DNA of 64,000 nt from a virus: positions 1 through 64,000 of IMG/VR virus record IMGVR_UViG_3300026512_000006; one strand, written 5' to 3'. The notes under the pieces were generated by a model. It was not told the DNA's origin and did no database searches. It saw only the letters and a list, made by a program, of their open reading frames with translations. This document shows, in pieces, positions 8,344 to 27,908 of the stretch (position 1 is the first letter of the stretch; every line of letters begins with the position of its first letter). The translations under genes were made by a program, and so were the position numbers.

Positions 8344-8805
8344 TTACAACTCCCAAGGTTTCTTAGGGAGCGGTTCTGTTATTGATTGTTGGGCTTTAAT
8401 GGCTTTTACTTCTTCTTTAGTTTTATTATCTGCAGCTGCCTTAGTTTTTAGTTTATCTGCTTTTAGTTTTTCTTTTTCTGCTATTAAAGTTAGTCGTTTT
8501 TCCTCTTGCTTTGCAAAGGAGTCTATTTGAGATTGAGTTCTACCGAATGTTGGCATTTTAGTTTTCTTGCCAGCCGTTGGTGTTACAGACGGTTTAGAGC
8601 TAGCTGAAGGCTTAGAAGTAGTAGGTGCTGATGATTCATCCTCTGCAGCTTGTTTGAGGGCTGAGTAGCTTCTATTGAAGTCTGACGGCATGTTATTTAA
8701 GAAAGCCATTACAGCCGCTACTTCTTTGTATGTTAAGTTTAATGTTATTGATACTGTTTTCAAATTAATCTCCTTTAGTATTCTATTGAAGCGTACACTG
8801 TACAC
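8344..8805 (-). CDS. hypothetical protein with S/T/P-rich linker and Lys-rich coiled coil (153 aa)
   Basis: ORF track; AAAGGAG SD. Confidence 0.55.
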   Translation of the reverse strand: MYSVRFNRILKEINLKTVSITLNLTYKEVAAVMAFLNNMPSDFNRSYSALKQAAEDESSAPTTSKPSASSKPSVTPTAGKKTKMPTFGRTQSQIDSFAKQEEKRLTLIAEKEKLKADKLKTKAAADNKTKEEVKAIKAQQSITEPLPKKPWEL

Positions 8806-9057
8806 TTCTCACAATACTATATTTATTGTTCTCATCCGTTTTTCCTCTAACGGTTTGTCTAAAAGTATAGTTTCTCTTGAGTAGGGCTGGAAACATATAA
8901 AACAGAAGCCAAGCAGTTTTATTGAGTGTCAGACTATTCCTCTAGCAAAATAATATTTATCGTCTTCTATTTTCAATTAGACTAGCTATAATTATCATCT
9001 ATAGCAAAGAGCATACTTATTATTTAATCGACATATTAGTATACAAATATTGTCCAT

Positions 9058-9088: not shown

Positions 9089-10294
9089 TTAGTAACGAAA
9101 TAATGTATCTTCGTAGCTGTAGGTAATTTTTTCATCGATTTTAGTGTATTCTTCTTCTTGAAGCCATAAAATATCTTGTAAGTATAAGATATTTTTTATC
9201 GGGTTTATGGAAGTTAAAACATATTCATCTACTACGCATTCAAGATCTTTTAAAATCATTTTTAATTTTTCTTTAGACATTTTCTTTAATTCTTTTTCAG
9301 TATATAAAGAGATAGTATATTCTTCTTGAATTGCAGCAGCTATTGCTTTATATTCTAAAGAGGTAGGTGCTGGTATTTTTGTTATCGGTTTACTGAAAGA
9401 TTTAGTAGAGTTTATTTCGTAGTTATACTTTGAAATAAATGATTTTTCTTCTAAGTTTTCTTCTTTAACAAATTGAGTAGATGCATTGTATTTCAGCTTT
9501 TTAAAAAGTTCTCTAATATTATTTACTAATGTATTTATAGGAATATTATCCGCTACAGTGTAAGATAAATCGACAGGAACTACTCCTAAAAGTTTTTCTA
9601 CTTCTGAAGGATTTGTTGTTTCAGCATGAATTATTGAAGCACATCTATTCTTATGGTAAGTTATAGTATTAGATGTAGTTGTATTAGCTAGGCGATACTC
9701 TGTATGACAAATTTCTGTTCTATCTGATTTGTGTAACATAATGGAGCTAAATGATGGTTTTTGAAAATCTTTTTCTATTTCTGCTAAAGGAAAACAAATA
9801 CCTGGATCAGGGAATGTTGTAGATAAGTCAGTGCCACTAAATGTTGCCAAGTTACCAGGATGGCGATGTATTGTGCCAAGGTTCACAGATATCCATTCAA
9901 AAGATGCTGAAGGGAACTGTGCTTTTAGTTTGGTGCCAAATGTGGATTTTGTTAATTCATTAACTTTAGTGTTGTGAATTATTTTTAAGGAGTCACTCAT
10001 AGTATCAACATCTTTAAGATTGAAATCAATAGCTGCTGAACTTACAGTTTGTTTATAATTAAAATAGACTGTTGGTATTGCTATATCAATTATAGAACCA
10101 TCTTTAAATGTAAATCTACCATTGAGAAACCAGTAGTGTACTTGGTATTCATTGTGATGTGTAAGTGGTCCTGAATTAGTGGTGATAGCATTAATATCCA
10201 AATCTTTAAATAGAATTATACCTAAATTTTTAGTGTTAGTGTAATCTTCAATTGTTGGTAAGGTTATTGCGGTTGGTAGTACAAGTTTTTTCAT
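9089..10294 (-). CDS. JAB/JAMM (MPN+) metallopeptidase domain protein (401 aa)
   Basis: HRHPGNLATFSGTD = H-x-H-x7-S-x2-D JAMM signature at ~aa 154-167; AAGGAG SD; long C-terminal extension with a coiled coil. Confidence 0.7.
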   Translation of the reverse strand: MKKLVLPTAITLPTIEDYTNTKNLGIILFKDLDINAITTNSGPLTHHNEYQVHYWFLNGRFTFKDGSIIDIAIPTVYFNYKQTVSSAAIDFNLKDVDTMSDSLKIIHNTKVNELTKSTFGTKLKAQFPSASFEWISVNLGTIHRHPGNLATFSGTDLSTTFPDPGICFPLAEIEKDFQKPSFSSIMLHKSDRTEICHTEYRLANTTTSNTITYHKNRCASIIHAETTNPSEVEKLLGVVPVDLSYTVADNIPINTLVNNIRELFKKLKYNASTQFVKEENLEEKSFISKYNYEINSTKSFSKPITKIPAPTSLEYKAIAAAIQEEYTISLYTEKELKKMSKEKLKMILKDLECVVDEYVLTSINPIKNILYLQDILWLQEEEYTKIDEKITYSYEDTLFRY

Positions 10295-11366
10295 TTGGTA
10301 TCTCCTTAATTATGTTTGCTCTAATATATATTTCTAAAGATTTATCGACACATGCTGCTGCGTATGTTAGTGCTCCAGTGTGCATTATCCTATGAGTATA
10401 TGGAGAGGACGCATTTGAATGTGTTAGTGTTCTTATACCCTTTAGAGTCTTATTATCTAATGAACCTGTACATACTGATCTAAATACTATTTTGGGGAAT
10501 TCACAAGAAGTATTTACCCATTCATCTAGGCCAATAGTACAGTTTGAAGATATGTTACAAGACCACATAGGAGTAAGGTAGGTACCAGAGGTAGTATTAC
10601 CTAGTTTTATTAGTGATGTTCCGTAATAAGGCATGATAATGCCTTTTGTAAGGATTTGATGTGCAACTATATAGCATTCTTCATCAGGATACTCACCAGG
10701 TACTTTATTAATTTTATAATTTAAATTTGAAGTATTATCTTCAGGTAAACGTTGTATTTTTGTAGGAACTGTATTTGTAAATATTAGTAATTGATTATTG
10801 ATATTTTTATCTATTCTATCTTTACATGCTCTATGTTCTTCATATTTTTCAAATAAATTTTCTTTTTCTTCTATTGAACTATACGCATAAATTACAAGTT
10901 TAAAAATAGTCTTAGAAGTTAGTTCATTTGCAGATAGAAGACTCATAGCAGTTAATGGATGTAATGGATTTAATATTGTTTTATCATCAATTAATAGAGC
11001 GCCATAAAATCTTTCTTCTAGAGATACTTTAATTTTATTAATCTTATTTAGACATTCTTTAATTGTGCCTGCTTTATTTATAGTTATAATTGTAGAAGTT
11101 ATATTATTCATAGCAATATCGTAGTGTTCAGCAGAAAGTAAATTATTAGGATTTCTATCTTTAGCTACTATTCTATTTTCATTTAATAGTTCTTGGAATG
11201 CTTTAGTTTTAGGTATTGTTCTGAAACAAACATTACCATCTTTAAAAGTATCATCCGGGTATTCTAATAAAAAATCTATATCGATTGAATCTTTATATTT
11301 TGCTGATTCTTTAAATAATGTTGATTGTAGAACAGTGTTATGACTAAGTGCTGTTAAAGTGCTCAT
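10248..11366 (-). CDS. Cys-rich hypothetical protein (372 aa) between the E1-like and JAMM genes
   Basis: ORF track; ATGA overlap with the E1-like gene and 47-nt overlap with the JAMM gene; 10 Cys. The segment YPDDTFKDGNVCFRTI is only faintly E2-like. Confidence 0.6.
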   Translation of the reverse strand: MSTLTALSHNTVLQSTLFKESAKYKDSIDIDFLLEYPDDTFKDGNVCFRTIPKTKAFQELLNENRIVAKDRNPNNLLSAEHYDIAMNNITSTIITINKAGTIKECLNKINKIKVSLEERFYGALLIDDKTILNPLHPLTAMSLLSANELTSKTIFKLVIYAYSSIEEKENLFEKYEEHRACKDRIDKNINNQLLIFTNTVPTKIQRLPEDNTSNLNYKINKVPGEYPDEECYIVAHQILTKGIIMPYYGTSLIKLGNTTSGTYLTPMWSCNISSNCTIGLDEWVNTSCEFPKIVFRSVCTGSLDNKTLKGIRTLTHSNASSPYTHRIMHTGALTYAAACVDKSLEIYIRANIIKEIPNEKTCTTNRNNLTNN

Positions 11367-12364
11367 AAAGTTACTCCGGTTTCTGGTGTTATTAGGCCAT
11401 CATGGTTTAGTTGGAATGCGTAGTTTCTATCTGCTTTACGAACTGCGGTGCCGTCAAAGCTGAACTCTAATAATTCTTTATTTTGTTCTAAAGGATCGAA
11501 TGAAGGATCTGCTAATATTTCTAAGAATCCTATAGCCATACGTAGCTGGTTCATGAAGAAATTACTTAGTTGAATTACCCCATAAGATTCTACTTGTAAT
11601 GAAGTATCTTGAATAGGATTTAGATGTAAACTACATGAAGCATTACCATGAGTTGCTGAAATGAAACCGCCAAGTTTTGATAAAGATATTCTAGTTTCAA
11701 TATTTGGTGCTCCGTAGAATATATGTTGTTTATCCTTATTTAGTGTTCCATAATAGTCTCTCCAATAATGTCTGTTAGTTGTTGTTTTGTAAGATAGTCT
11801 AGTTAATTCATCTTCTAATAATTCTAGTTTGTGATTGTACCCAAGTGTTGCACTAGGATTTTTAGGAAATCTTATTAGGTTACTTACATCGATGTAGTCA
11901 TCCTCATAAATTACTGACTCATTAAATATATTAATTACATTAGTAAATTTAGATATTTCACTTAACCAATGTAATGTATTTACATTTGTACCTCCATAAC
12001 CTATAAAGCTAACTGAGTATTTAGCTGTTTTTACTTTTTTTAATAAAGTAGTTAAGTCTTTTTTTGTATACCCTAGTATTAGACATAATTGCTCAGTTGG
12101 AATTTGTTTTACATTAAATGTAGATGCAAACCATGGTGATATAGCGCATGCTGTTTTAGGTAAGTTAGCTTGTTCTTTAGCATAATTCATATTTAAATTA
12201 GAGGAAACAAATAATCTAGGTACAAATGAATCAATTACTGGATTTAATTTTCCTTCTACAGGTCTTTCATACATTGCGTATCTTGTTCTTATTTGATTTA
12301 TTAAATATTCAGTAAAATCTACGTAGTATGTTCGTGGAGTTGACCATTCTTGTTCTGTGTTCAT
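11363..12364 (-). CDS. ThiF/MoeB/E1-like adenylyltransferase (333 aa)
   Basis: VSFIGYGGTNVNTLHWL (GxGGxG Rossmann) followed by VIYEDDYIDVSNLIRF (D-x-D...SNL-x-R), the E1-superfamily nucleotide-binding signature. A ~115-aa N-terminal extension precedes it. Confidence 0.7.
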   Translation of the reverse strand: MNTEQEWSTPRTYYVDFTEYLINQIRTRYAMYERPVEGKLNPVIDSFVPRLFVSSNLNMNYAKEQANLPKTACAISPWFASTFNVKQIPTEQLCLILGYTKKDLTTLLKKVKTAKYSVSFIGYGGTNVNTLHWLSEISKFTNVINIFNESVIYEDDYIDVSNLIRFPKNPSATLGYNHKLELLEDELTRLSYKTTTNRHYWRDYYGTLNKDKQHIFYGAPNIETRISLSKLGGFISATHGNASCSLHLNPIQDTSLQVESYGVIQLSNFFMNQLRMAIGFLEILADPSFDPLEQNKELLEFSFDGTAVRKADRNYAFQLNHDGLITPETGVTL

Positions 12365-12443
12365 GTTGTTTTCCTATGTTAATAAATGTTTAATTTAGTG
12401 TGACTAAGTAAGACCTCCTGAGAGGCCTTTATAGACAAACTAG

Positions 12444-12560
12444 TTAGATACCTGATTTTGATGAAGTCTGTAAAGATGCTCCACTTGATTGAGTTACTGA
12501 TGTATTTTCTGTAGTATCTGTGCCTGCAATTGCTGCTGCGATTTCTTCTGCTAATGTCAT
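12444..12560 (-). CDS. 38-aa peptide ORF (not in ORF track): MTLAEEIAAAIAGTDTTENTSVTQSSGASLQTSSKSGI
   Basis: ATG 2 nt after the stop of the 85-aa ORF, with a GGAGA SD inside that ORF's end. Helical N-terminal half, Ser/Thr-rich C-terminal half. Lies directly upstream of the E1-like gene. Confidence 0.4.
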   Translation of the reverse strand: MTLAEEIAAAIAGTDTTENTSVTQSSGASLQTSSKSGI

Positions 12561-12562
12561 AG

Positions 12563-12820
12563 TTATTCTCCTTTTTCTTCGTCTGGTTTAATATTTACTG
12601 GAATATCTACTTCTACAGTGCCTTCAAGTTTGAATACATTAATAGCTGCAGTTGAGCATGCAAGAGCTTTTACTTGTTTTAGAAGTTCTTTTTTAGTCAT
12701 ACGTTTAGTAATAATCTTACCATTAATTTCTAGTACATATTTACCTGGTTTAGCAGTACGCTGTTTTTTAGCGGATAGTTCTGTTAAGAGTTGATCGATT
12801 AGTGATGTTGGTTTAGACAT
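12563..12820 (-). CDS. hypothetical protein (85 aa), possible beta-grasp-like; ends ...EEKGE
   Basis: ORF track; first gene of the coupled block. The pattern KYVLEINGKIITK-helix-INVFKLEGTVEV is compatible with a small beta-alpha-beta fold (inference). Confidence 0.55.
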   Translation of the reverse strand: MSKPTSLIDQLLTELSAKKQRTAKPGKYVLEINGKIITKRMTKKELLKQVKALACSTAAINVFKLEGTVEVDIPVNIKPDEEKGE

Positions 12821-14205: not shown

Positions 14206-14442
14206 TTATTTTATTGGTGCCTTATCATAATGATAAATATCATATGTTGGGGCTCTATAATCGTACATTACGTTAGGAGCGGGTGTTGTTTGAGTAGGGT
14301 AATATTTCGGTTGTTTGAGTTGTTGTTCTACTTTGTAAGACTGATAAGTAGTATCCCACGGATTAGTAGAAGGTAGATTATCTTGAAAGTTTGATGCGTA
14401 AGTTAAACTCACTAAACTTAATAATAATAGTAATTTATACAT
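14206..14442 (-). CDS. secreted small protein (78 aa)
   Basis: Signal-peptide-like MYKLLLLLSLVSLTYAS. Confidence 0.55.
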   Translation of the reverse strand: MYKLLLLLSLVSLTYASNFQDNLPSTNPWDTTYQSYKVEQQLKQPKYYPTQTTPAPNVMYDYRAPTYDIYHYDKAPIK

Positions 14443-14872
14443 TAGGAGCCTTTATAGGAGGATAATAGCTAGCGCCTTTACCTGCCATTTTATGAGTGTA
14501 TTCGTGGCAATCTCTGCATAGAGTTGTTAAATCCTCTGTATGTTCATTACCTAGATTTTTATAAGTTATATGGTGTACTTCAATAGTATCTGAGTTACCA
14601 CACATTCTACATTGGTAATGATCAGAATGCAATACATTTTTTCTAGCTTGATTTTCTTTCCATTTAGATGATTTTATATAAGTTTGATAATCTATCATAT
14701 CTTTAGGTTCTGTGTATATGTATTCTTGTTTATTATTACGTAATTCATACATATACTCTTGGAATTCATTTTTAGTTACTTCGTTAGAAATGTTGGTTGG
14801 AGTTGGAGCAGTGCCTATATTATATAGTATGAAAGCTATGAATGCAATTATTGCAATAGTTGTAAACATCAA
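14435..14872 (-). CDS. HNH endonuclease with N-terminal transmembrane helix (145 aa)
   Basis: CRMCGNSDTIEVHHITYKNLGNEHTEDLTTLCRDCHEYTH HNH/zinc motif; N-terminal MMFTTIAIIAFIAFILYNIG. Confidence 0.75.
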   Translation of the reverse strand: MMFTTIAIIAFIAFILYNIGTAPTPTNISNEVTKNEFQEYMYELRNNKQEYIYTEPKDMIDYQTYIKSSKWKENQARKNVLHSDHYQCRMCGNSDTIEVHHITYKNLGNEHTEDLTTLCRDCHEYTHKMAGKGASYYPPIKAPNV

Positions 14873-15126
14873 TTTCCTTTAATGGGTTTTGGCATTTTAT
14901 GTACTCTACGTGTCAAAATGAGTTTTATCTTGTAGAAGAAGCCTTGGCGTCTAGCTGTTCTCCAAGTGAGTTGTCTTAAAGAATATGGCTTTTTTCTATG
15001 AGAAGAAGTATAATAATTACCTAGGAATTTAAAGGTAATTGTATATTGGCGTAATTCAAATAATACAATACCTTCTTCGTATGCTTGAAGACGATTAGAT
15101 TGTCCGTTGATACTAATATTTTTCAT
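14869..15126 (-). CDS. hypothetical basic protein (85 aa)
   Basis: ORF track; overlaps both neighbours by a few nt. Confidence 0.45.
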   Translation of the reverse strand: MKNISINGQSNRLQAYEEGIVLFELRQYTITFKFLGNYYTSSHRKKPYSLRQLTWRTARRQGFFYKIKLILTRRVHKMPKPIKGN

Positions 15127-15748
15127 GTTTTGCCTTTAATGTTTGTACAAATTCTAATGGAGCAATATTGTCCCAATCTCCTTTTTGTTGTAAATATCTA
15201 TAATGGTTGTCAAATTCATCCCCAAATGTTTCTTTAAAGCATAAAGCTCCATATCTACCAATGTAGTATTCATTACAATTATTATCCCAAAACACACATA
15301 ACTCGGTATATTTAGGTTTCCATAATTCAACATTATCTATCCTGTAGTGTTCAGATGTACTAGAATGTACATAAGTAGCATCTATAGCATTTATTTGTAT
15401 TATTATAGAATAACCTTTTCTTTGTACCCAATCACCGACTTTAAATTCAGGTTCTTCTGGTTTTATACGTATATTTTTGGTATTAAACCAAGTATCTAAT
15501 TTACGGTAATGCGTAGACCAAGTTTTACCATCATCTTCTGTATATTGTAATTCCTTGCCATCTACTAATGCTTTTCTAAATTCAGCATATTTATCGTTTT
15601 GTACATAAAAGTAATCTTTACACCAGTTAGGTGTATTGTCTATATGCCATTCACTGTAGGGAGTCTTTTTTTTCCATACACCTTTAGTTGGATTATCAAC
15701 AAACCATTTTATAACTTCTTTATGTTTTTCAACTTGTTCTATTGTCAT
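15113..15748 (-). CDS. Trp-rich paralog family B protein (211 aa)
   Basis: The N-terminal 100 aa are ~80% identical to 15798-16133 (EQVEKH..VIKWFVDNP.KGVW.K.TP...IDNTPNW...YVQNDKYAEFRKALVDGKELQYT). Confidence 0.65.
   Translation of the reverse strand: MTIEQVEKHKEVIKWFVDNPTKGVWKKKTPYSEWHIDNTPNWCKDYFYVQNDKYAEFRKALVDGKELQYTEDDGKTWSTHYRKLDTWFNTKNIRIKPEEPEFKVGDWVQRKGYSIIIQINAIDATYVHSSTSEHYRIDNVELWKPKYTELCVFWDNNCNEYYIGRYGALCFKETFGDEFDNHYRYLQQKGDWDNIAPLEFVQTLKAKHEKY
15541..15608. repeat. 68-nt exact duplicate of 15926-15993
   Basis: Identical string tatattgtaattccttgccatctactaatgcttttctaaattcagcatatttatcgttttgtacataa in both paralogs. Confidence 0.9.
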
Positions 15749-15797: not shown

Positions 15798-16133
15798 TTA
15801 TCTATAATATGCCCAGTCATTAATTTCAAATCTAAGTTCTTCTGGTTTTATGCGAATATTTTCAGGAGTATAAAAAGTATTTAATTTATTATAATTAGTA
15901 AACCAAGTCTTACCATTATTTATTGTATATTGTAATTCCTTGCCATCTACTAATGCTTTTCTAAATTCAGCATATTTATCGTTTTGTACATAAGTATAAT
16001 CTTCGTACCAATTAGGTGTGTTATCTATATACCAGTCATTAGTAGGAGTATCTTTTCTCCATACTCCTTTATCAGGATTATCCACGAACCATTTGATTAC
16101 TGTACCATGTTTTTCTACTTGTTCTTTAGTCAT
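15798..16133 (-). CDS. Trp-rich paralog family B protein (111 aa)
   Basis: See 15113-15748; carries the second copy of the 68-nt exact repeat (15926-15993). Confidence 0.65.
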   Translation of the reverse strand: MTKEQVEKHGTVIKWFVDNPDKGVWRKDTPTNDWYIDNTPNWYEDYTYVQNDKYAEFRKALVDGKELQYTINNGKTWFTNYNKLNTFYTPENIRIKPEELRFEINDWAYYR

Positions 16134-17644: not shown

Positions 17645-17869
17645 TTATTTTTTGGTTTCCACCATTTTGGTGTTTTTTATATATATTTTCCATTTTGTTT
17701 CATCCCATGACTTGTTCATTGGAATATTATATGAAAGAATATCTATAAATCGAAAAGGTTTAGTGTATGTCTCATCGTAATAACAATAGGTTATATTATT
17801 ATAATTTTTGGGAGTTAATTTTTCTCCATTTATCAGTCTTTGTATTAATTCTTTTTTAGTTAATGTCAT
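17645..17869 (-). CDS. hypothetical protein (74 aa from MTLTKKELIQ...)
   Basis: ORF track 17645-17929. The internal ATG at 17869 gives the usual short overlap with the upstream gene end (17856). Confidence 0.5.
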   Translation of the reverse strand: MTLTKKELIQRLINGEKLTPKNYNNITYCYYDETYTKPFRFIDILSYNIPMNKSWDETKWKIYIKNTKMVETKK

Positions 17870-18341
17870 TTTTTTCTCCTTGATATAAATCTTCAGGCTT
17901 AACAGGTTTAGCGTATTGCCAACTAGCACCTCCTCGTACTACGAAAGGATATTTAGTATCTTTTTCATAGTTTTTAAAAGTTCTTAAAAGCCATTCTCTT
18001 TCTTTAAAATCTCTAACCCATACAGGCTTATCTATCATATCAGGGTCTTCATACCATTCTTTAGGTTTAATACGATATCTAGTACAAATATTCCAAGTAG
18101 GGGTACATTCTACCCATTTTCTTAAACTTACGTCATACATTTGAAATTGAGTTTCTGGTTTATCTATTTGTAATTTTTTAAGTTTTGCTTGTTTATCATC
18201 TACTATATAAATTTCAGTTTCATTCCAAGTTGGTATATTTTTTAAACTCCAAAATTTTTCATGAGGATACCTACACCATACATTGTCTCTTCTTATACTT
18301 ATCCATCTACTAAATTCTTTTCTAATTTCTTCATTAGTCAT
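17856..18341 (-). CDS. Trp-rich protein distantly related to family B (161 aa)
   Basis: Shared pattern W..P.W....Y.V.D..A......Q......W......W...YRIKP with 15113-15748 and 15798-16133. Confidence 0.6.
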   Translation of the reverse strand: MTNEEIRKEFSRWISIRRDNVWCRYPHEKFWSLKNIPTWNETEIYIVDDKQAKLKKLQIDKPETQFQMYDVSLRKWVECTPTWNICTRYRIKPKEWYEDPDMIDKPVWVRDFKEREWLLRTFKNYEKDTKYPFVVRGGASWQYAKPVKPEDLYQGEKNDIN

Positions 18342-19072: not shown

Positions 19073-19822
19073 TTAGCAGAGAGCATATGAAGATTTTTCA
19101 AGACCTTTTACTAACTTTGTTGTATTTATACTAAAGTCTTTTTCACAAAATTCTTCAAGATAATTGCCTTCAGCTATAACTTTGAGAGCTTCTTTGTAGA
19201 GTTCTCGTAATTTAGACATGTTATTAGGATGAGCTTGTAGTTCATCATGTATATGCGATACTTGAAAGTCTGCATTTTCTACTACGTAACGTATTACAAA
19301 GGCGTCTAAACTATGCACTACATTAGGAGCTAATGAAGTTTTTACATTTGATGGCATATTCTTTTCATAACGATAAGGTAAGTTAAGGCCTTCTTGTTCG
19401 ATAATTCCATCTATGTGTTGAGTTACTTTGACATGAGCTACATGTCCATCTGGGAGAGCCCATTCGTGGAACATAGTAGTATTATCCCATCTATCGTTGA
19501 GAGCTTTTAGGACATTCATAGCGCCGGGGAATAACTCTTGAAGGGTATCGTAGAAAGCATGAAGTTCTTCAGTATCTTCTCCAAAGGCTTCAAGAGGTTG
19601 TAGACGACTATTATACATAGTAGTCATTACAGGCTTTTTACAGAAAGAGCGTACTTGTTTAAATGACATTCCATCGAAGATAGTAGAGTGAGGTATTTTT
19701 TCTAACATACGTGTAGCTACTAGACTATAAGGGTCGGCTCTAATAGTTGTTTCGATATAGTTATTTTTATTTGTTTTAATATTACGTATTTCTGCTAAAA
19801 TTTGTTGTTTAGTGCGTTTCAT
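19073..19822 (-). CDS. T7-like (N4 RNAPII-type) RNA polymerase, C-terminal catalytic subunit (249 aa)
   Basis: RSFCKKPVMTTMYNS ~ T7 motif B RSVTKRSVMTLAYGS. APNVVHSLDA ~ APNFVHSQDG. SHIHDELQ ~ motif C IHDSFGT. C-terminal SSYALC ~ DFAFA. Has its own AGGAGG SD 4 nt upstream of the ATG. Confidence 0.85.
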   Translation of the reverse strand: MKRTKQQILAEIRNIKTNKNNYIETTIRADPYSLVATRMLEKIPHSTIFDGMSFKQVRSFCKKPVMTTMYNSRLQPLEAFGEDTEELHAFYDTLQELFPGAMNVLKALNDRWDNTTMFHEWALPDGHVAHVKVTQHIDGIIEQEGLNLPYRYEKNMPSNVKTSLAPNVVHSLDAFVIRYVVENADFQVSHIHDELQAHPNNMSKLRELYKEALKVIAEGNYLEEFCEKDFSINTTKLVKGLEKSSYALC

Positions 19823-19975: not shown

Positions 19976-20347
19976 CGTTGTATTCAAGTAAGGGCGTTAA
20001 TCTTACTTCGTTATTAAGTTACCAAATACATAACCACGTAACTCTTTAGGTATTCTACCATCATAAAGGTCTGCGCGTTTATTTATATTTATTTAACTTA
20101 ATAACTGCTTAATATTTCTATTAAGACTAGACTATATCATCTCCCGTTCTGGGAGTTCCGCACTTCGAATACACTTGTATTCTACGGACTTCATCTACTG
20201 TTCTAGTAGGTATGTCCTAGTCGTTGCACCTTCAAAGAGATTCCTCTCTAAGCTTGGCTCATGATTGCCTTCAGCGTTATCTGTTAAGGGTTCCCATGAA
20301 TTCACGGAATATTTTTAGAATAGCATTCCTGTTAAACTGGGCGATTC
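19976..20347 (-). mobile_element. group I intron (372 nt, no ORF) inside the RNAP middle-subunit gene
   Basis: The intron interrupts the conserved DATASG|LQ motif A. The exon ends in U and the intron ends in G. An R-like element GUGCAACGACUAGGAC (20214-20230) and an S-like element GAUGAUAUAGUCUAGUC (20125-20141) have complementary GACUA/UAGUC (P7). GCCC 5 nt into the intron can pair with exon GGGU (P1). The region is GC-rich and structured relative to the exons. Confidence 0.8.
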
Positions 20348-21019
20348 ACCCGAAGCTGTTGCGTCTAACCCCATATTATGTCCTATTGGATTGCCTTTTA
20401 TAACACCTTCGTACCATGCGTAGATAGCTTTTATAAGAAGTTGTGGGGTATCTGCTATAGCTATATACTTATTTAAAGCTTCTTCATTAATTTCATTATT
20501 TATAAAGATTTCTTTAATGACTTTATTAGCTTCTGTGATACGTTTAAACCATACATCTTTATCATAGCCTAAGCAATTTGCTATATCTATTTTGAGGTAT
20601 GTCATGCCCTCTGAGGTTAGTAATTCTTTGTCTGAGAAGCTTAACATAGCTTTACGGTATTCATTGCCTTGTATGTTACAGTGATACCCTTGTGAGTACA
20701 TTCGGCCTCTTTTGTCATATTTCCATCCAAAGTAGAATTTATTGCCATTTTCTAGTAAGTAGTCTATTACGTTGTTTGTTTCTTTGTCACGTAGCTTATA
20801 AGACTTTACACGTTCTTTTTCTTCTATAGCTGATAGAGGTTTGCTTGATGGCTTTAATGTATCTGTAAGTAAATGTAGAATATTCTCATTTAATTCCCAT
20901 GGAATTGCTTGAAGTTTATTGATTGCATTTTTATTTACTCGTTGCCCTACAAAGTTTCCTCTGCCTAATACTAGTGTGTCTTTGTCTTTAGTTAATAAAT
21001 GAGATACGATACGTTTCAT
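20348..21019 (-). CDS. T7-like RNA polymerase middle subunit, exon 1 (224 codons)
   Basis: WKYDKRGRMYSQGYHCNIQGNEYRKAML ~ T7 DWRGRVYAVSMFNPQGNDMTKGLL (T/DxxGR). LKIDIANCLGYDK ~ LKIHGANCAGVDK. GLDATASG ~ motif A FDGSCSG. The track ORF then runs into intron-encoded ESPSLTGMLF-stop. Confidence 0.85.
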
Positions 21020-25047: not shown

Positions 25048-25083
25048 AAAAAAAGAAGAAGTAACTACCCGAAGGTAGCTACT
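25048..25083 (-). terminator. intrinsic terminator after the first early operon
   Basis: Minus strand AGUAGCUACC-UUCG-GGUAGUUACU followed by UCUUCUUUUUUU. Confidence 0.8.
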
Positions 25084-27578: not shown

Positions 27579-27908
27579 ATGGAAGAAATAGAGGATATGG
27601 AAGAATTAGCAATGGCTGGTAATAAGATGGAAAAGAAAGCTATGTTGGAAAAGAAGAAGAAGCGTGAGCATATTAGAAAGCTTAAACGACTTGTAGGCCT
27701 GGATTCATGGGAGAACCCAGATGAACTAATTGTAAGTGAAGCTGGTGAGAAACTAATTAATTACGTAAAGTTTATTAAAGATCCAATGGTTAAGAAAGAG
27801 TTCACTAAAGCCCAGTTCAAGACTGTTAACAACTGTCTAGTGGATATCATTAATGTATTTAGTGAACTTGAGGTGGCTTACGAGGATAACTTACTAAAGA
27901 AGGTCTAA
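27579..27908 (+). CDS. hypothetical protein (109 aa)
   Basis: ORF track; Lys/Glu-rich. Confidence 0.5.
   Translation: MEEIEDMEELAMAGNKMEKKAMLEKKKKREHIRKLKRLVGLDSWENPDELIVSEAGEKLINYVKFIKDPMVKKEFTKAQFKTVNNCLVDIINVFSELEVAYEDNLLKKV

What the first reader, a model, noticed from the sequence alone, without database searches (positions are those of the whole stretch)
12444..12560. Unannotated 38-aa leader/core-like peptide directly upstream of the E1-like gene
MTLAEEIAAAIAGTDTTENTSVTQSSGASLQTSSKSGI has an amphipathic helical N-terminal half. In its C-terminal half, 12 of the last 25 residues are Ser/Thr. Its ATG lies 2 nt after the preceding stop, with a GGAGA SD. This architecture resembles RiPP precursors, in which E1-like proteins act as MccB-type adenylases or as partners of YcaO cyclodehydratases. 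It also resembles short disordered Pup-like tags. The ORF falls below the 60-aa ORF-track cutoff, so it would be missed by default annotation.
Basis: partly seen in the sequence, partly recalled or inferred. Interest (0 to 1): 0.7.

Follow-up and report, generated by a model that had tools for sequence, protein, structure and literature searches.

The report
Phage peptide partnered with E1-like enzyme
The 38-codon ORF is a real gene, conserved in dozens of uncultured phages, whose peptide ends in a ubiquitin-style Ser-Gly plus a throw-away tail and always sits before an E1-like activating enzyme, an unknown cysteine protein and a JAMM peptidase, so it is probably a miniature ubiquitin-like tag or scaffold not described in the papers I could search.

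Summary
The ORF exists as described, on the minus strand (12560->12444), with a GGAG Shine-Dalgarno site and an ATG 2 nt after the upstream stop. A 38-codon ORF is unremarkable here; conservation is what makes it real. Every related locus with enough upstream sequence (about 27 distinct variants, E1 homologues only 34-53% identical) has a 37-54-aa ORF in the same place. These ORFs keep an SD site, show pN/pS of 0.28-0.77, share an Ala-rich N-terminal helix, and end in K-x(0-2)-S-G plus a variable 1-8-residue tail. A stem-loop conserved in structure but not sequence follows the stop codon. Downstream lies a fixed trio. The first is an E1/ThiF-fold enzyme (AF2 pLDDT 88; best PDB matches MccB, ThiF, Uba4, PaaA, Cap2) with no conserved cysteine. 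The second is a protein with no PDB fold match and an invariant cysteine. The third carries an invariant JAMM motif (E...HxHx7Sx2D). There is no YcaO, no terminal Asn and no PafA/Dop. My best reading is that the peptide is the substrate: JAMM trims the tail, E1 adenylates the exposed Gly, and the cysteine protein passes it on. That would be ubiquitin-like logic without a beta-grasp fold. The chemistry is inferred, not shown. The cassette was found almost only in phage or metagenome contigs, and I found no paper describing it.

The parts
12563..12820 (-). Upstream 85-aa gene (family U1). It is a variable accessory, and its last codons carry the SD of the peptide gene.
   Evidence: U1 homologues lie directly upstream of the peptide in about half of the loci. 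The others have an unrelated 162-206-aa family (U2) there instead. U1 showed no similarity to Pfam, PDB or ThiS.
12567..12571 (-). Shine-Dalgarno site GGAGA of the peptide gene.
   Evidence: Read directly from the sequence. A GGAG/AGGA-type site sits 5-10 nt before the ATG in nearly all homologous loci.
12444..12560 (-). The 38-aa peptide gene. It has an Ala-rich N-terminal helix, a polar linker, a conserved ...SL-x-T-x-S-K-S-G motif and a 1-residue tail (Ile38).
12410..12429 (-). Stem-loop AAGGCCTC-TCAG-GAGGTCTT, starting 14 nt after the peptide stop codon. It is a candidate attenuator or 3' stabiliser.
   Evidence: A strong hairpin follows the peptide stop, within about 25 nt in most loci, in nearly all of the 27 distinct gaps folded, each with a different sequence. 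The z-score was -2 or lower in 25 of 27 gaps, reaching -7.7. Only 6 hairpins of this strength occur on the minus strand of the 64-kb window. It has no T-run, so it is not a canonical intrinsic terminator.
11363..12364 (-). E1/ThiF-fold adenylating enzyme (333 aa). It has an N-terminal domain of about 115 residues, the motifs GYGGTN (family consensus GxGGTG) and DVSNLIRF, and no conserved cysteine.
   Evidence: 91 homologues, all from metagenomes. Pfam ThiF hit 4 of 30 members. AF2 gave pLDDT 88.3 and pTM 0.89. Foldseek best matches were MccB at 6e-7, then ThiF, Uba4, PaaA, Cap2 and MoeB. Invariant columns are listed.
10248..11366 (-). Protein B (372 aa). Its predicted fold has no PDB match. 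Invariant residues are N133, P134, H136, Q237, C299, H316 and N318. It is the candidate thioester carrier or ligase. Its start overlaps the E1 stop.
   Evidence: It is always the gene after E1. Alignments are A2 and A4. AF2 gave pLDDT 85.5 and pTM 0.83. The best PDB fold match had E = 0.93. The only BFVD match was an uncharacterised podovirus protein. There were no significant Pfam or PDB sequence hits and no similarity to UbcH5b.
9089..10294 (-). JAMM/JAB-motif metallopeptidase (401 aa). E49, H143-x-H145, S153 and D156 are invariant or nearly so. It has a C-terminal helical extension and overlaps B by 47 nt.
   Evidence: Alignment A3 holds 17 sequences at 29-43% identity. A weak Pfam Prok-JAB hit falls exactly on the motif. 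hhalign aligned the motif with the JAB motif of lambda K. The fold itself was not modelled.

Best explanation
The ORF encodes a translated peptide of about 40 aa that is the substrate of the three enzymes encoded after it. The four genes form a phage-specific cassette that follows ubiquitin-like logic but lacks a beta-grasp modifier. Proposed steps, all inferred: (1) The peptide is made in excess over the enzymes, because the conserved stem-loop after its stop codon attenuates or stabilises the short transcript. (2) The JAMM peptidase removes the variable 1-8-residue tail and exposes the conserved ...K-S-G carboxylate, Gly37 in this phage. (3) The E1-like enzyme, which has no conserved cysteine (like ThiF, MoeB, MccB and Bub E1), adenylates that glycine; its N-terminal domain may hold the peptide. 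(4) The activated peptide is passed to the invariant Cys299 of protein B and from there to an amine on a host or phage protein. The Ala-rich N-terminal helix would then be displayed on a flexible polar linker. The JAMM enzyme could also reverse the mark. What is shown: the gene is real and under purifying selection; the synteny, the C-terminal motif plus tail, the hairpin and the E1 fold are established; the JAMM motif and the invariant Cys are present. What is not shown: any of the chemistry, and the target.
For: The peptide is conserved with its SD site at a fixed position in every locus with enough upstream sequence. It is at least as conserved as the enzyme: 66% identity for the closest peptide in A5, against at most 53% for any E1 homologue in A1. 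pN/pS was below 1 in all 14 informative pairs. Ser-Gly is at least 90% conserved, is followed by a tail that is never absent and never conserved, and usually has a Lys 2 or 4 residues before the Gly. This is the pattern of ubiquitin, SUMO, NEDD8 and QbsE-type precursors, by established knowledge. E1 and JAB together are the hallmark of prokaryotic Ub-like cassettes (PMC1779556). The E1 fold is confirmed with an intact nucleotide loop and SNLxR motif. The JAMM motif is invariant. Protein B has an invariant Cys, His and Asn. E1, B and JAMM overlap or abut, as in an operon. A structure-only conserved hairpin separates the peptide gene from the enzymes. Precedents exist for E1-type systems that act on non-beta-grasp tails or lack an E1 cysteine: CBASS Cap2 with the CD-NTase tail (paper listed, not read; the mechanism is from my own knowledge) and Bub E1 (PMC11601596).
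Against: There is no biochemical evidence and no cultured phage carrying the cassette. Protein B is not recognisably an E2 by fold or by sequence, so the transfer step is an analogy. One member has SKSE-STI instead of S-G, and one has K-G-Q. The JAMM fold was not modelled, and sequence profiles do not reach significance against JAB families. The family has YGAP where ThiF and MoeB have the Mg-binding DxxD(N), so catalysis may differ. No target is evident. The top structural neighbour of the E1 is MccB, a peptide-modifying rather than conjugating enzyme.
Confidence: 0.5

Rival explanations
1. RiPP-like or scaffold-peptide pathway. The peptide is a precursor or carrier whose C-terminus is chemically elaborated by a MccB/PaaA-like E1 enzyme, for example by amidation, ligation of an amine or amino acid, or cyclisation. 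Protein B would be a tailoring enzyme or cysteine peptidase. JAMM would trim or release the product. The end product is a free small peptide or molecule, not a protein conjugate.
For: MccB is the best structural match of the E1, aligned over nearly its full length, and PaaA is also among the matches. The peptide has a leader-like conserved N-terminal helix and a conserved C-terminal motif. A hairpin between a precursor gene and its enzyme genes is typical of precursor-peptide operons such as mccA; this is from my own knowledge and I read no paper on it. The Gln-Cys-His-Asn order of invariant residues in B resembles papain-type peptidases.
Against: The cassette has no terminal Asn, no YcaO, and no Pfam-recognisable exporter, immunity gene or other known RiPP enzyme. 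The conserved residue is a glycine followed by a disposable tail. The E1 plus JAMM pairing is characteristic of Ub-like systems. The Foldseek ranking of MccB over ThiF is marginal, 6e-7 against 2.5e-6.
Confidence: 0.2
2. Sulfur-carrier peptide. After JAMM trimming, E1 adenylates the terminal Gly, which is converted to a thiocarboxylate, as in ThiS, MoaD, CysO and QbsE. The sulfur would feed a phage nucleic-acid or cofactor modification, with Cys299 of B acting as a persulfide relay.
For: E1 enzymes without a catalytic Cys, combined with JAMM trimming of a C-terminal tail, is the QbsC/QbsD/QbsE and CysO/Mec arrangement (established knowledge; discussed in PMC1779556). The cassette lies among nucleotide-metabolism and replication genes.
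Against: No rhodanese, cysteine desulfurase or PP-loop thiolase was detected in the cassette proteins or in the neighbouring ORFs I scanned. The peptide lacks a beta-grasp fold and a Gly-Gly end. The conserved N-terminal helix has no role in this model.
Confidence: 0.08
3. The peptide is an independent small phage protein, for example a regulator or an inhibitor of a host factor. It merely keeps its place next to the E1 operon and is not acted on by those enzymes.
For: Gene order is conserved in these phages generally. No physical or chemical link has been shown. A homing-endonuclease-like ORF (L011), a tRNA-Gln (L015/L016) or another ORF (L013) can sit between the peptide and E1 without loss of either.
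Against: The genes upstream of the peptide (U1, U2 or neither) and those downstream of the JAMM gene change between loci, while the peptide-E1-B-JAMM block does not. The Gly-plus-tail C-terminus is exactly what E1 and JAMM enzymes act on.
Confidence: 0.12
4. The ORF is a spurious, untranslated reading frame in an intergenic leader.
For: Short ORFs are frequent in this AT-rich DNA. Single-sequence phmmer found no database protein.
Against: The frame, length, SD site and motif are conserved across about 27 diverged variants, with pN/pS below 1. Homologues were called as genes independently.
Confidence: 0.02

Closest known systems
Prokaryotic ubiquitin-like conjugation cassettes with Ubl, E1, E2 and a JAB or other peptidase (Bil, Bub, the 6E-type operons of Iyer et al. 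2006, and CBASS Cap2/Cap3)
   Same: They share an E1/ThiF-fold adenylating enzyme, a JAMM-motif peptidase, and a third protein with an invariant Cys. The substrate has a conserved C-terminal Gly followed by a removable tail. The genes form a tight operon. As in Bub and ThiF-type E1s, there is no conserved E1 cysteine. As in CBASS, the activated end is a disordered tail rather than part of a beta-grasp domain.
   Different: The modifier is only 37-54 aa, low in complexity and too short for a beta-grasp fold. It ends in Ser-Gly, not Gly-Gly. The middle protein has no detectable UBC/E2 fold or motif. The cassette is carried by lytic-type phage genomes related to N4-like phages rather than by bacterial defence islands.
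Microcin C (MccA/MccB) and pantocin A (PaaP/PaaA)
   Same: A short ribosomal peptide is encoded immediately upstream of an E1-like enzyme that acts on it. MccB is the best structural match of the E1. A hairpin separates the peptide gene from the enzyme genes.
   Different: MccA must end in Asn and PaaP has a Glu-Glu-Asn core, whereas this family conserves Ser-Gly plus a variable tail. No Mcc or Paa accessory genes are present. A JAMM peptidase and a cysteine protein are obligatory partners here.
Sulfur carriers processed by JAMM peptidases (QbsE/QbsC/QbsD and CysO/MoeZ/Mec+)
   Same: In both, a JAMM enzyme removes residues after a C-terminal Gly, and an E1-like enzyme without a catalytic Cys then adenylates that Gly.
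   Different: Those carriers are beta-grasp proteins ending in Gly-Gly and work with sulfurtransferases. No sulfurtransferase was detected in the cassette proteins or the neighbours scanned here.
Pup and UBact (prokaryotic ubiquitin-like protein)
   Same: Both are small, probably disordered tags without a beta-grasp fold, attached through the C-terminal end so that the rest is displayed.
   Different: Pup ends in GGQ or GGE and is ligated through a Glu side chain by PafA/Dop, which are glutamine-synthetase-like enzymes. No E1 or JAMM enzyme is involved, and no PafA/Dop homologue is present here.

Membership tests
Ubl-E1-E2-JAB conjugation systems | E1/ThiF-fold adenylating enzyme with a nucleotide-binding loop | tested here: met
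   Pfam ThiF hit 4 of 30 homologues, best E 1e-5. The AF2 model matches MccB, ThiF, Uba4, Cap2 and MoeB at E 6e-7 to 3e-5. The GxGGTG and SNLxR motifs are conserved.
Ubl-E1-E2-JAB conjugation systems | JAB/JAMM peptidase with the motif E...HxHx7Sx2D | tested here: met
   E49, H143, H145 and D156 are invariant and S153 is at least 90% conserved in 17 sequences. A weak Prok-JAB hit falls on the motif. The motif aligns with that of lambda K. The fold was not modelled, and profile searches were not significant.
Ubl-E1-E2-JAB conjugation systems | Modifier with a beta-grasp (ubiquitin-like) fold | tested here: not met
   The peptides are 37-54 aa and low in complexity, and 17 of 26 have no aromatic residue. 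That is too short for a beta-grasp fold. The neighbouring 85-aa U1 protein shows no ThiS or PDB similarity and is absent from half of the loci.
Ubl-E1-E2-JAB conjugation systems | Modifier ends in a conserved Gly, either free or followed by a cleavable tail | tested here: met
   S36 and G37 are at least 90% conserved. 25 of 26 variants have the terminal-region Gly followed by a tail of 1-8 residues.
Ubl-E1-E2-JAB conjugation systems | E2/UBC-fold enzyme with a catalytic Cys | tested here: not met
   Protein B has an invariant Cys299, but its confident model has no PDB fold match (best E 0.93) and no hhalign similarity to UbcH5b.
Ubl-E1-E2-JAB conjugation systems | Formation of isopeptide conjugates | not testable with these tools
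   This needs biochemistry.
Microcin C type (MccA/MccB) | Precursor peptide ends in Asn, which becomes the nucleotide-linked residue | tested here: not met
   The last residue varies (I, S, K, R, C, Y, L, A, E, Q, N ...). Only one of the 26 variants ends in Asn, and no Asn is conserved.
Microcin C type (MccA/MccB) | E1-like enzyme with an N-terminal peptide-clamp domain | tested here: inconclusive
   MccB is the top Foldseek match, aligned over about 350 columns, but TM is only 0.40-0.42 and rmsd is large. The N-terminal 115 residues are conserved in the family.
TOMM, LAP and cyanobactin cyclodehydratases (E1-like plus YcaO) | A YcaO domain protein next to or fused with the E1-like protein | tested here: not met
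   No Pfam YcaO hit appeared in any cassette protein or in 22+17 homologues. The model of B has no PDB match.
Pup/PafA pupylation | C-terminal GGQ or GGE, and a PafA/Dop ligase | tested here: not met
   The peptides end in S-G plus a tail. No protein of the cassette has Pfam, NCBIfam or PDB similarity to PafA/Dop.
ThiS/MoaD/QbsE sulfur carriers | Beta-grasp carrier ending in Gly-Gly, plus a sulfurtransferase | tested here: not met
   The peptide is too short and ends in Ser-Gly. No rhodanese or desulfurase hit appeared in the cassette proteins or in the neighbours scanned.

The most novel reading that the evidence does not exclude
A phage-encoded protein-tagging system in which the tag is a peptide of about 40 aa, disordered and without a beta-grasp fold, in effect a ubiquitin tail alone. 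A JAMM peptidase matures it, an E1-like enzyme activates its terminal Gly, and it is transferred through a thioester on a cysteine enzyme of a previously unseen fold onto host or phage proteins during infection. That would make it a new architecture of ubiquitin-like conjugation, used by viruses of bacteria rather than against them.
Probability: 0.4. Interest if true: 0.9.

Novelty: new variant of a known kind. Interest (0 to 1): 0.78.

Why it matters
Ubiquitin-like conjugation in bacteria has so far been described as a cellular, mostly antiphage, function that relies on beta-grasp modifiers. The one exception is the CBASS CD-NTase tail. A widespread phage cassette that keeps the E1 and the JAMM peptidase but replaces the modifier with a 40-residue peptide and the E2 with an unknown-fold cysteine protein would have three consequences if the conjugation reading holds. 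It would show that E1 chemistry does not need the ubiquitin fold. It would add a viral counterpart to the bacterial systems, possibly for host takeover or counter-defence, since Apyc1-type anti-defence genes lie nearby in relatives. And it would supply a very small, genetically encodable, enzymatically attachable tag. Even if the RiPP-like reading is right, it would be a rare case of a phage-encoded peptide natural-product pathway. The hypothesis is directly testable with four genes in E. coli.

Tried and rejected
1. Close phage relatives. Megablast of the 4.4-kb cassette region and tblastn of the E1 (window copy and P0065) and the JAMM protein against INPHARED found nothing.

2. Family searches. 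Pfam, PHROGs, PADLOC and NCBIfam on the cassette proteins, and Pfam on family consensus sequences, gave only weak hits.

3. PDB profile searches for E1, B, JAMM and U1 were not significant.

4. B as an E2: rejected for now by Foldseek and hhalign.

5. U1 (the 85-aa protein) as the real beta-grasp modifier. It has no ThiS or PDB similarity and is absent from about half of the loci.

6. Gly-rich ends of U1 and U2. Their C-termini (EEKGE, DGGAE, TKEG) first looked like Ubl tails. They are explained by the peptide gene's SD site (GGAG/GAAGGA) embedded in those last codons.

7. The idea that the peptide is a remnant of the N-terminal extension seen in longer E1 homologues. This is rejected, because loci with 450-690-aa E1 proteins also have the separate peptide.

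A pattern scan with the peptide alignment was impossible.

9. A canonical intrinsic terminator after the peptide. None was found, because there is no T-run.

10. GTDB genomes. The only matches were two short contigs of one MAG, probably binned phage DNA.

Full report
**1. The observation**

The ORF at 12444-12560 lies on the minus strand and encodes MTLAEEIAAAIAGTDTTENTSVTQSSGASLQTSSKSGI. Its ATG is 2 nt after the stop of an 85-aa ORF (12563-12820). A GGAGA sits at 12571-12567, 7 nt upstream of the ATG. The 333-aa gene (11363-12364) starts 79 nt downstream.

- 13 rather than 12 of the last 25 residues are Ser/Thr.
- The N-terminal segment is Ala-rich and hydrophobic but only weakly amphipathic, with a helical moment of 0.29.
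- A gene caller did call this 38-aa product on another assembly of the same phage.

On its own the ORF is not remarkable. In this AT-rich stretch, 77 ORFs of at least 30 aa overlap 12 kb.

**2. Genome context**

The window is a tailed-phage genome. It encodes terminase, portal, major head protein and tail proteins on the plus strand. On the minus strand it has a block of early or middle genes that includes the two subunits of an N4-like RNA polymerase and DNA-polymerase fragments.

The minus-strand gene order is: 85-aa ORF, 38-aa ORF, 333-aa, 372-aa, 401-aa. The last three overlap or abut one another. The cassette region has no nucleotide match in INPHARED, and its E1 and JAMM proteins have no tblastn match there.

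**3. Conservation of the peptide**

The 333-aa protein has 91 homologues, all from metagenome or uncultured-virus assemblies, often on contigs of 80-120 kb. I fetched loci through exact-protein look-ups, IMG/VR and JGI metagenomes.

In every locus with enough upstream sequence there is a 37-54-aa ORF on the same strand directly before the E1 homologue. One apparent exception, L011, also has it. There the ORF was hidden inside a longer ORF, and a 295-aa ORF that I read as homing-endonuclease-like (no Pfam hit) is inserted before the E1 gene.

The 26 distinct sequences align as follows:
- Met-Ala/Thr, then a hydrophobic Ala-rich helix, often followed by A-G-x-D-T/S;
- a polar linker with a conserved Val and an S-G;
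- a C-terminal ...K-(x0-2)-S-G, in which Ser and Gly are at least 90% conserved;
- a tail of 1-8 residues that is never absent and never conserved.

Further evidence that the frame is coding:
- The closest peptide in the alignment is 66% identical to the window's, while no E1 homologue aligned in A1 exceeds 53%.
- pN/pS is 0.28-0.77 in the 14 informative pairs.
- A GGAG/AGGA site precedes nearly every start, and the start often overlaps the upstream stop.

This is a real protein-coding gene. Ser/Thr content varies from 0.15 to 0.41 and some members are strongly acidic. Ser/Thr richness is therefore linker composition, not a defining core.

**4. A conserved RNA feature**

A strong stem-loop follows the peptide stop, within about 25 nt in most loci. 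It appears in nearly all of the 27 distinct gaps folded, and the sequence differs from locus to locus. The z-score was -2 or lower in 25 of 27 gaps and reached -7.7.

In the window it is AAGGCCTC-TCAG-GAGGTCTT at 12429-12410. It is one of only six such hairpins on the minus strand of the 64 kb. It lacks a T-run.

I infer that it sets a high peptide-to-enzyme expression ratio, by attenuation or by 3' stabilisation. That would fit a stoichiometric substrate.

**5. The partner proteins**

E1-like protein (333 aa):
- 4 of 30 homologues reach Pfam ThiF.
- The AF2 model is confident, with pLDDT 88 and pTM 0.89.
- It matches MccB best (6e-7), followed by ThiF, Uba4, PaaA, Cap2 and MoeB.
- The GxGGTG loop and the DVSNLIRF motif (compare DxDxVxxSNLxRQ in ThiF/MoeB) are conserved. 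No cysteine is conserved.
- Most homologues carry variable N-terminal extensions of 100-350 aa with no Pfam domain. The window's protein lacks such an extension.

Protein B (372 aa):
- It is always the next gene.
- Its invariant residues are N133, P134, H136, Q237, C299, H316 and N318.
- Its model is confident, with pLDDT 85.5 and pTM 0.83, yet it has no PDB fold match (best E 0.93).
- Its only BFVD match is one uncharacterised podovirus protein.
- It shows no similarity to a canonical E2.

Protein C (401 aa):
- E49, H143-x-H145 and D156 are invariant and S153 is nearly invariant. This is the JAMM signature E...HxHx7Sx2D.
- A weak Prok-JAB hit falls on that motif.
- hhalign aligns it with the JAB motif of lambda K.

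Flanking genes:
- The gene upstream of the peptide is variable. It is either the 85-aa family U1 or an unrelated 162-206-aa family U2.
- Neither family resembles known folds by sequence.
- Their Gly-containing C-termini are explained by the peptide's SD site embedded in their last codons.

**6. Interpretation**

Three features point the same way:
- an E1-like adenylating enzyme paired with a JAMM peptidase, which is the hallmark of prokaryotic ubiquitin-like cassettes (PMC1779556);
- a substrate ending in a conserved Gly followed by a disposable tail;
- a third protein with an invariant cysteine.

The most economical mechanism is this. JAMM removes the tail. E1 adenylates the exposed Gly37. 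The acyl group passes to Cys299 of B and then to a target amine. JAMM may also reverse the mark.

Two precedents reduce the strangeness. Bub E1 enzymes lack a catalytic cysteine (PMC11601596). CBASS Cap2 activates the disordered C-terminal tail of a CD-NTase, by established knowledge. I give this conjugation reading about 0.5.

The rivals are:
- a RiPP-like or scaffold-peptide pathway giving a free product (0.2). It is supported mainly by MccB being the top structural neighbour and by the precursor-operon-like hairpin;
- a sulfur-carrier peptide of the QbsE/CysO type (0.08);
- an unrelated small protein that merely sits there (0.12);
- a spurious ORF (0.02).

The MccA analogy fails on the terminal Asn. 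Pup membership fails on GGQ/GGE and on PafA/Dop.

**7. Distribution and novelty**

The cassette was found in many diverged phage contigs. In 185,579 GTDB species genomes it appeared only on two short contigs of one MAG. It was not found in INPHARED. Full-text searches for phage E1/JAB/peptide-tag systems returned only the known bacterial systems.

I class it as a new variant of a known kind: ubiquitin-like E1/JAMM cassettes. Two components fall outside the known families, namely a modifier without a beta-grasp fold and a cysteine protein whose model has no PDB fold match. All mechanistic steps remain inferred.

Noticed in passing
L005 9481-10230; L010 9417-10199: In two related phages the gene directly after the JAMM gene is a small (249-260 aa) reverse transcriptase (Pfam RVT_1, E about 1e-20). 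The window has no counterpart. I did not establish whether it is linked to the cassette.
   Followed up: partly
L001 6301-7077; L002 3009-3755; L003/L004 equivalents: An Apyc1-type (anti-Pycsar, metallo-beta-lactamase) gene lies right after or a few kb before the cassette in several relatives. This suggests an anti-defence neighbourhood. I found no Apyc1 hit in the window ORFs I tested.
   Followed up: partly
L015 5907-5982; L016 1768-1843: A tRNA-Gln(UUG) gene sits between the peptide gene and the E1 gene.
   Followed up: yes
L011 4444-5331: A 295-aa ORF with Cys-rich zinc-finger-like motifs, which I read as homing-endonuclease-like, is inserted between the peptide gene and the E1 gene. It has no Pfam hit. 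The insertion shows the pair tolerates separation.
   Followed up: partly
L040 270-500: The peptide gene contains an exact duplication of about 85 nt covering its C-terminal half (...SLQGKAGSG twice). This gives a head-to-tail 'double' ORF that starts at GTG. It could be a poly-tag-like arrangement or an assembly artefact.
   Followed up: no
window 15113-15748, 15798-16133 and 17856-18341 (minus strand): Tandem paralogues share the N-terminal motif M-T-x-E-Q-V-E-K-H-x-x-V-I-K-W-F-V-D-N-P...W. They have no PHROG or Pfam hit.
   Followed up: no
window 19073-19822 and 20315-21019 (minus strand): Two ORFs match different parts of N4-like phage RNA polymerase (PHROG 2051 and 2166). This places the phage near N4-like podoviruses, although the contig is about 100 kb.
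   Followed up: partly
window 25060-25083, 8788-8808, 2070-2088, 27699-27720 (minus strand): These are the few other strong hairpins on the minus strand, for example AGTAGCTACC-TTCG-GGTAGTTACT. They may be transcript-end or processing signals of the early/middle gene block.
   Followed up: no
P0002-P0065 (E1 homologues): Most E1 homologues carry highly variable N-terminal extensions of 100-350 aa with no Pfam domain. The window's E1 and a few others lack any extension. Their function is unknown.
   Followed up: partly
window 14435-14872 (minus strand): An HNH endonuclease (Pfam HNH, E 4e-6) with an N-terminal hydrophobic segment lies about 2 kb upstream of the cassette.
   Followed up: no
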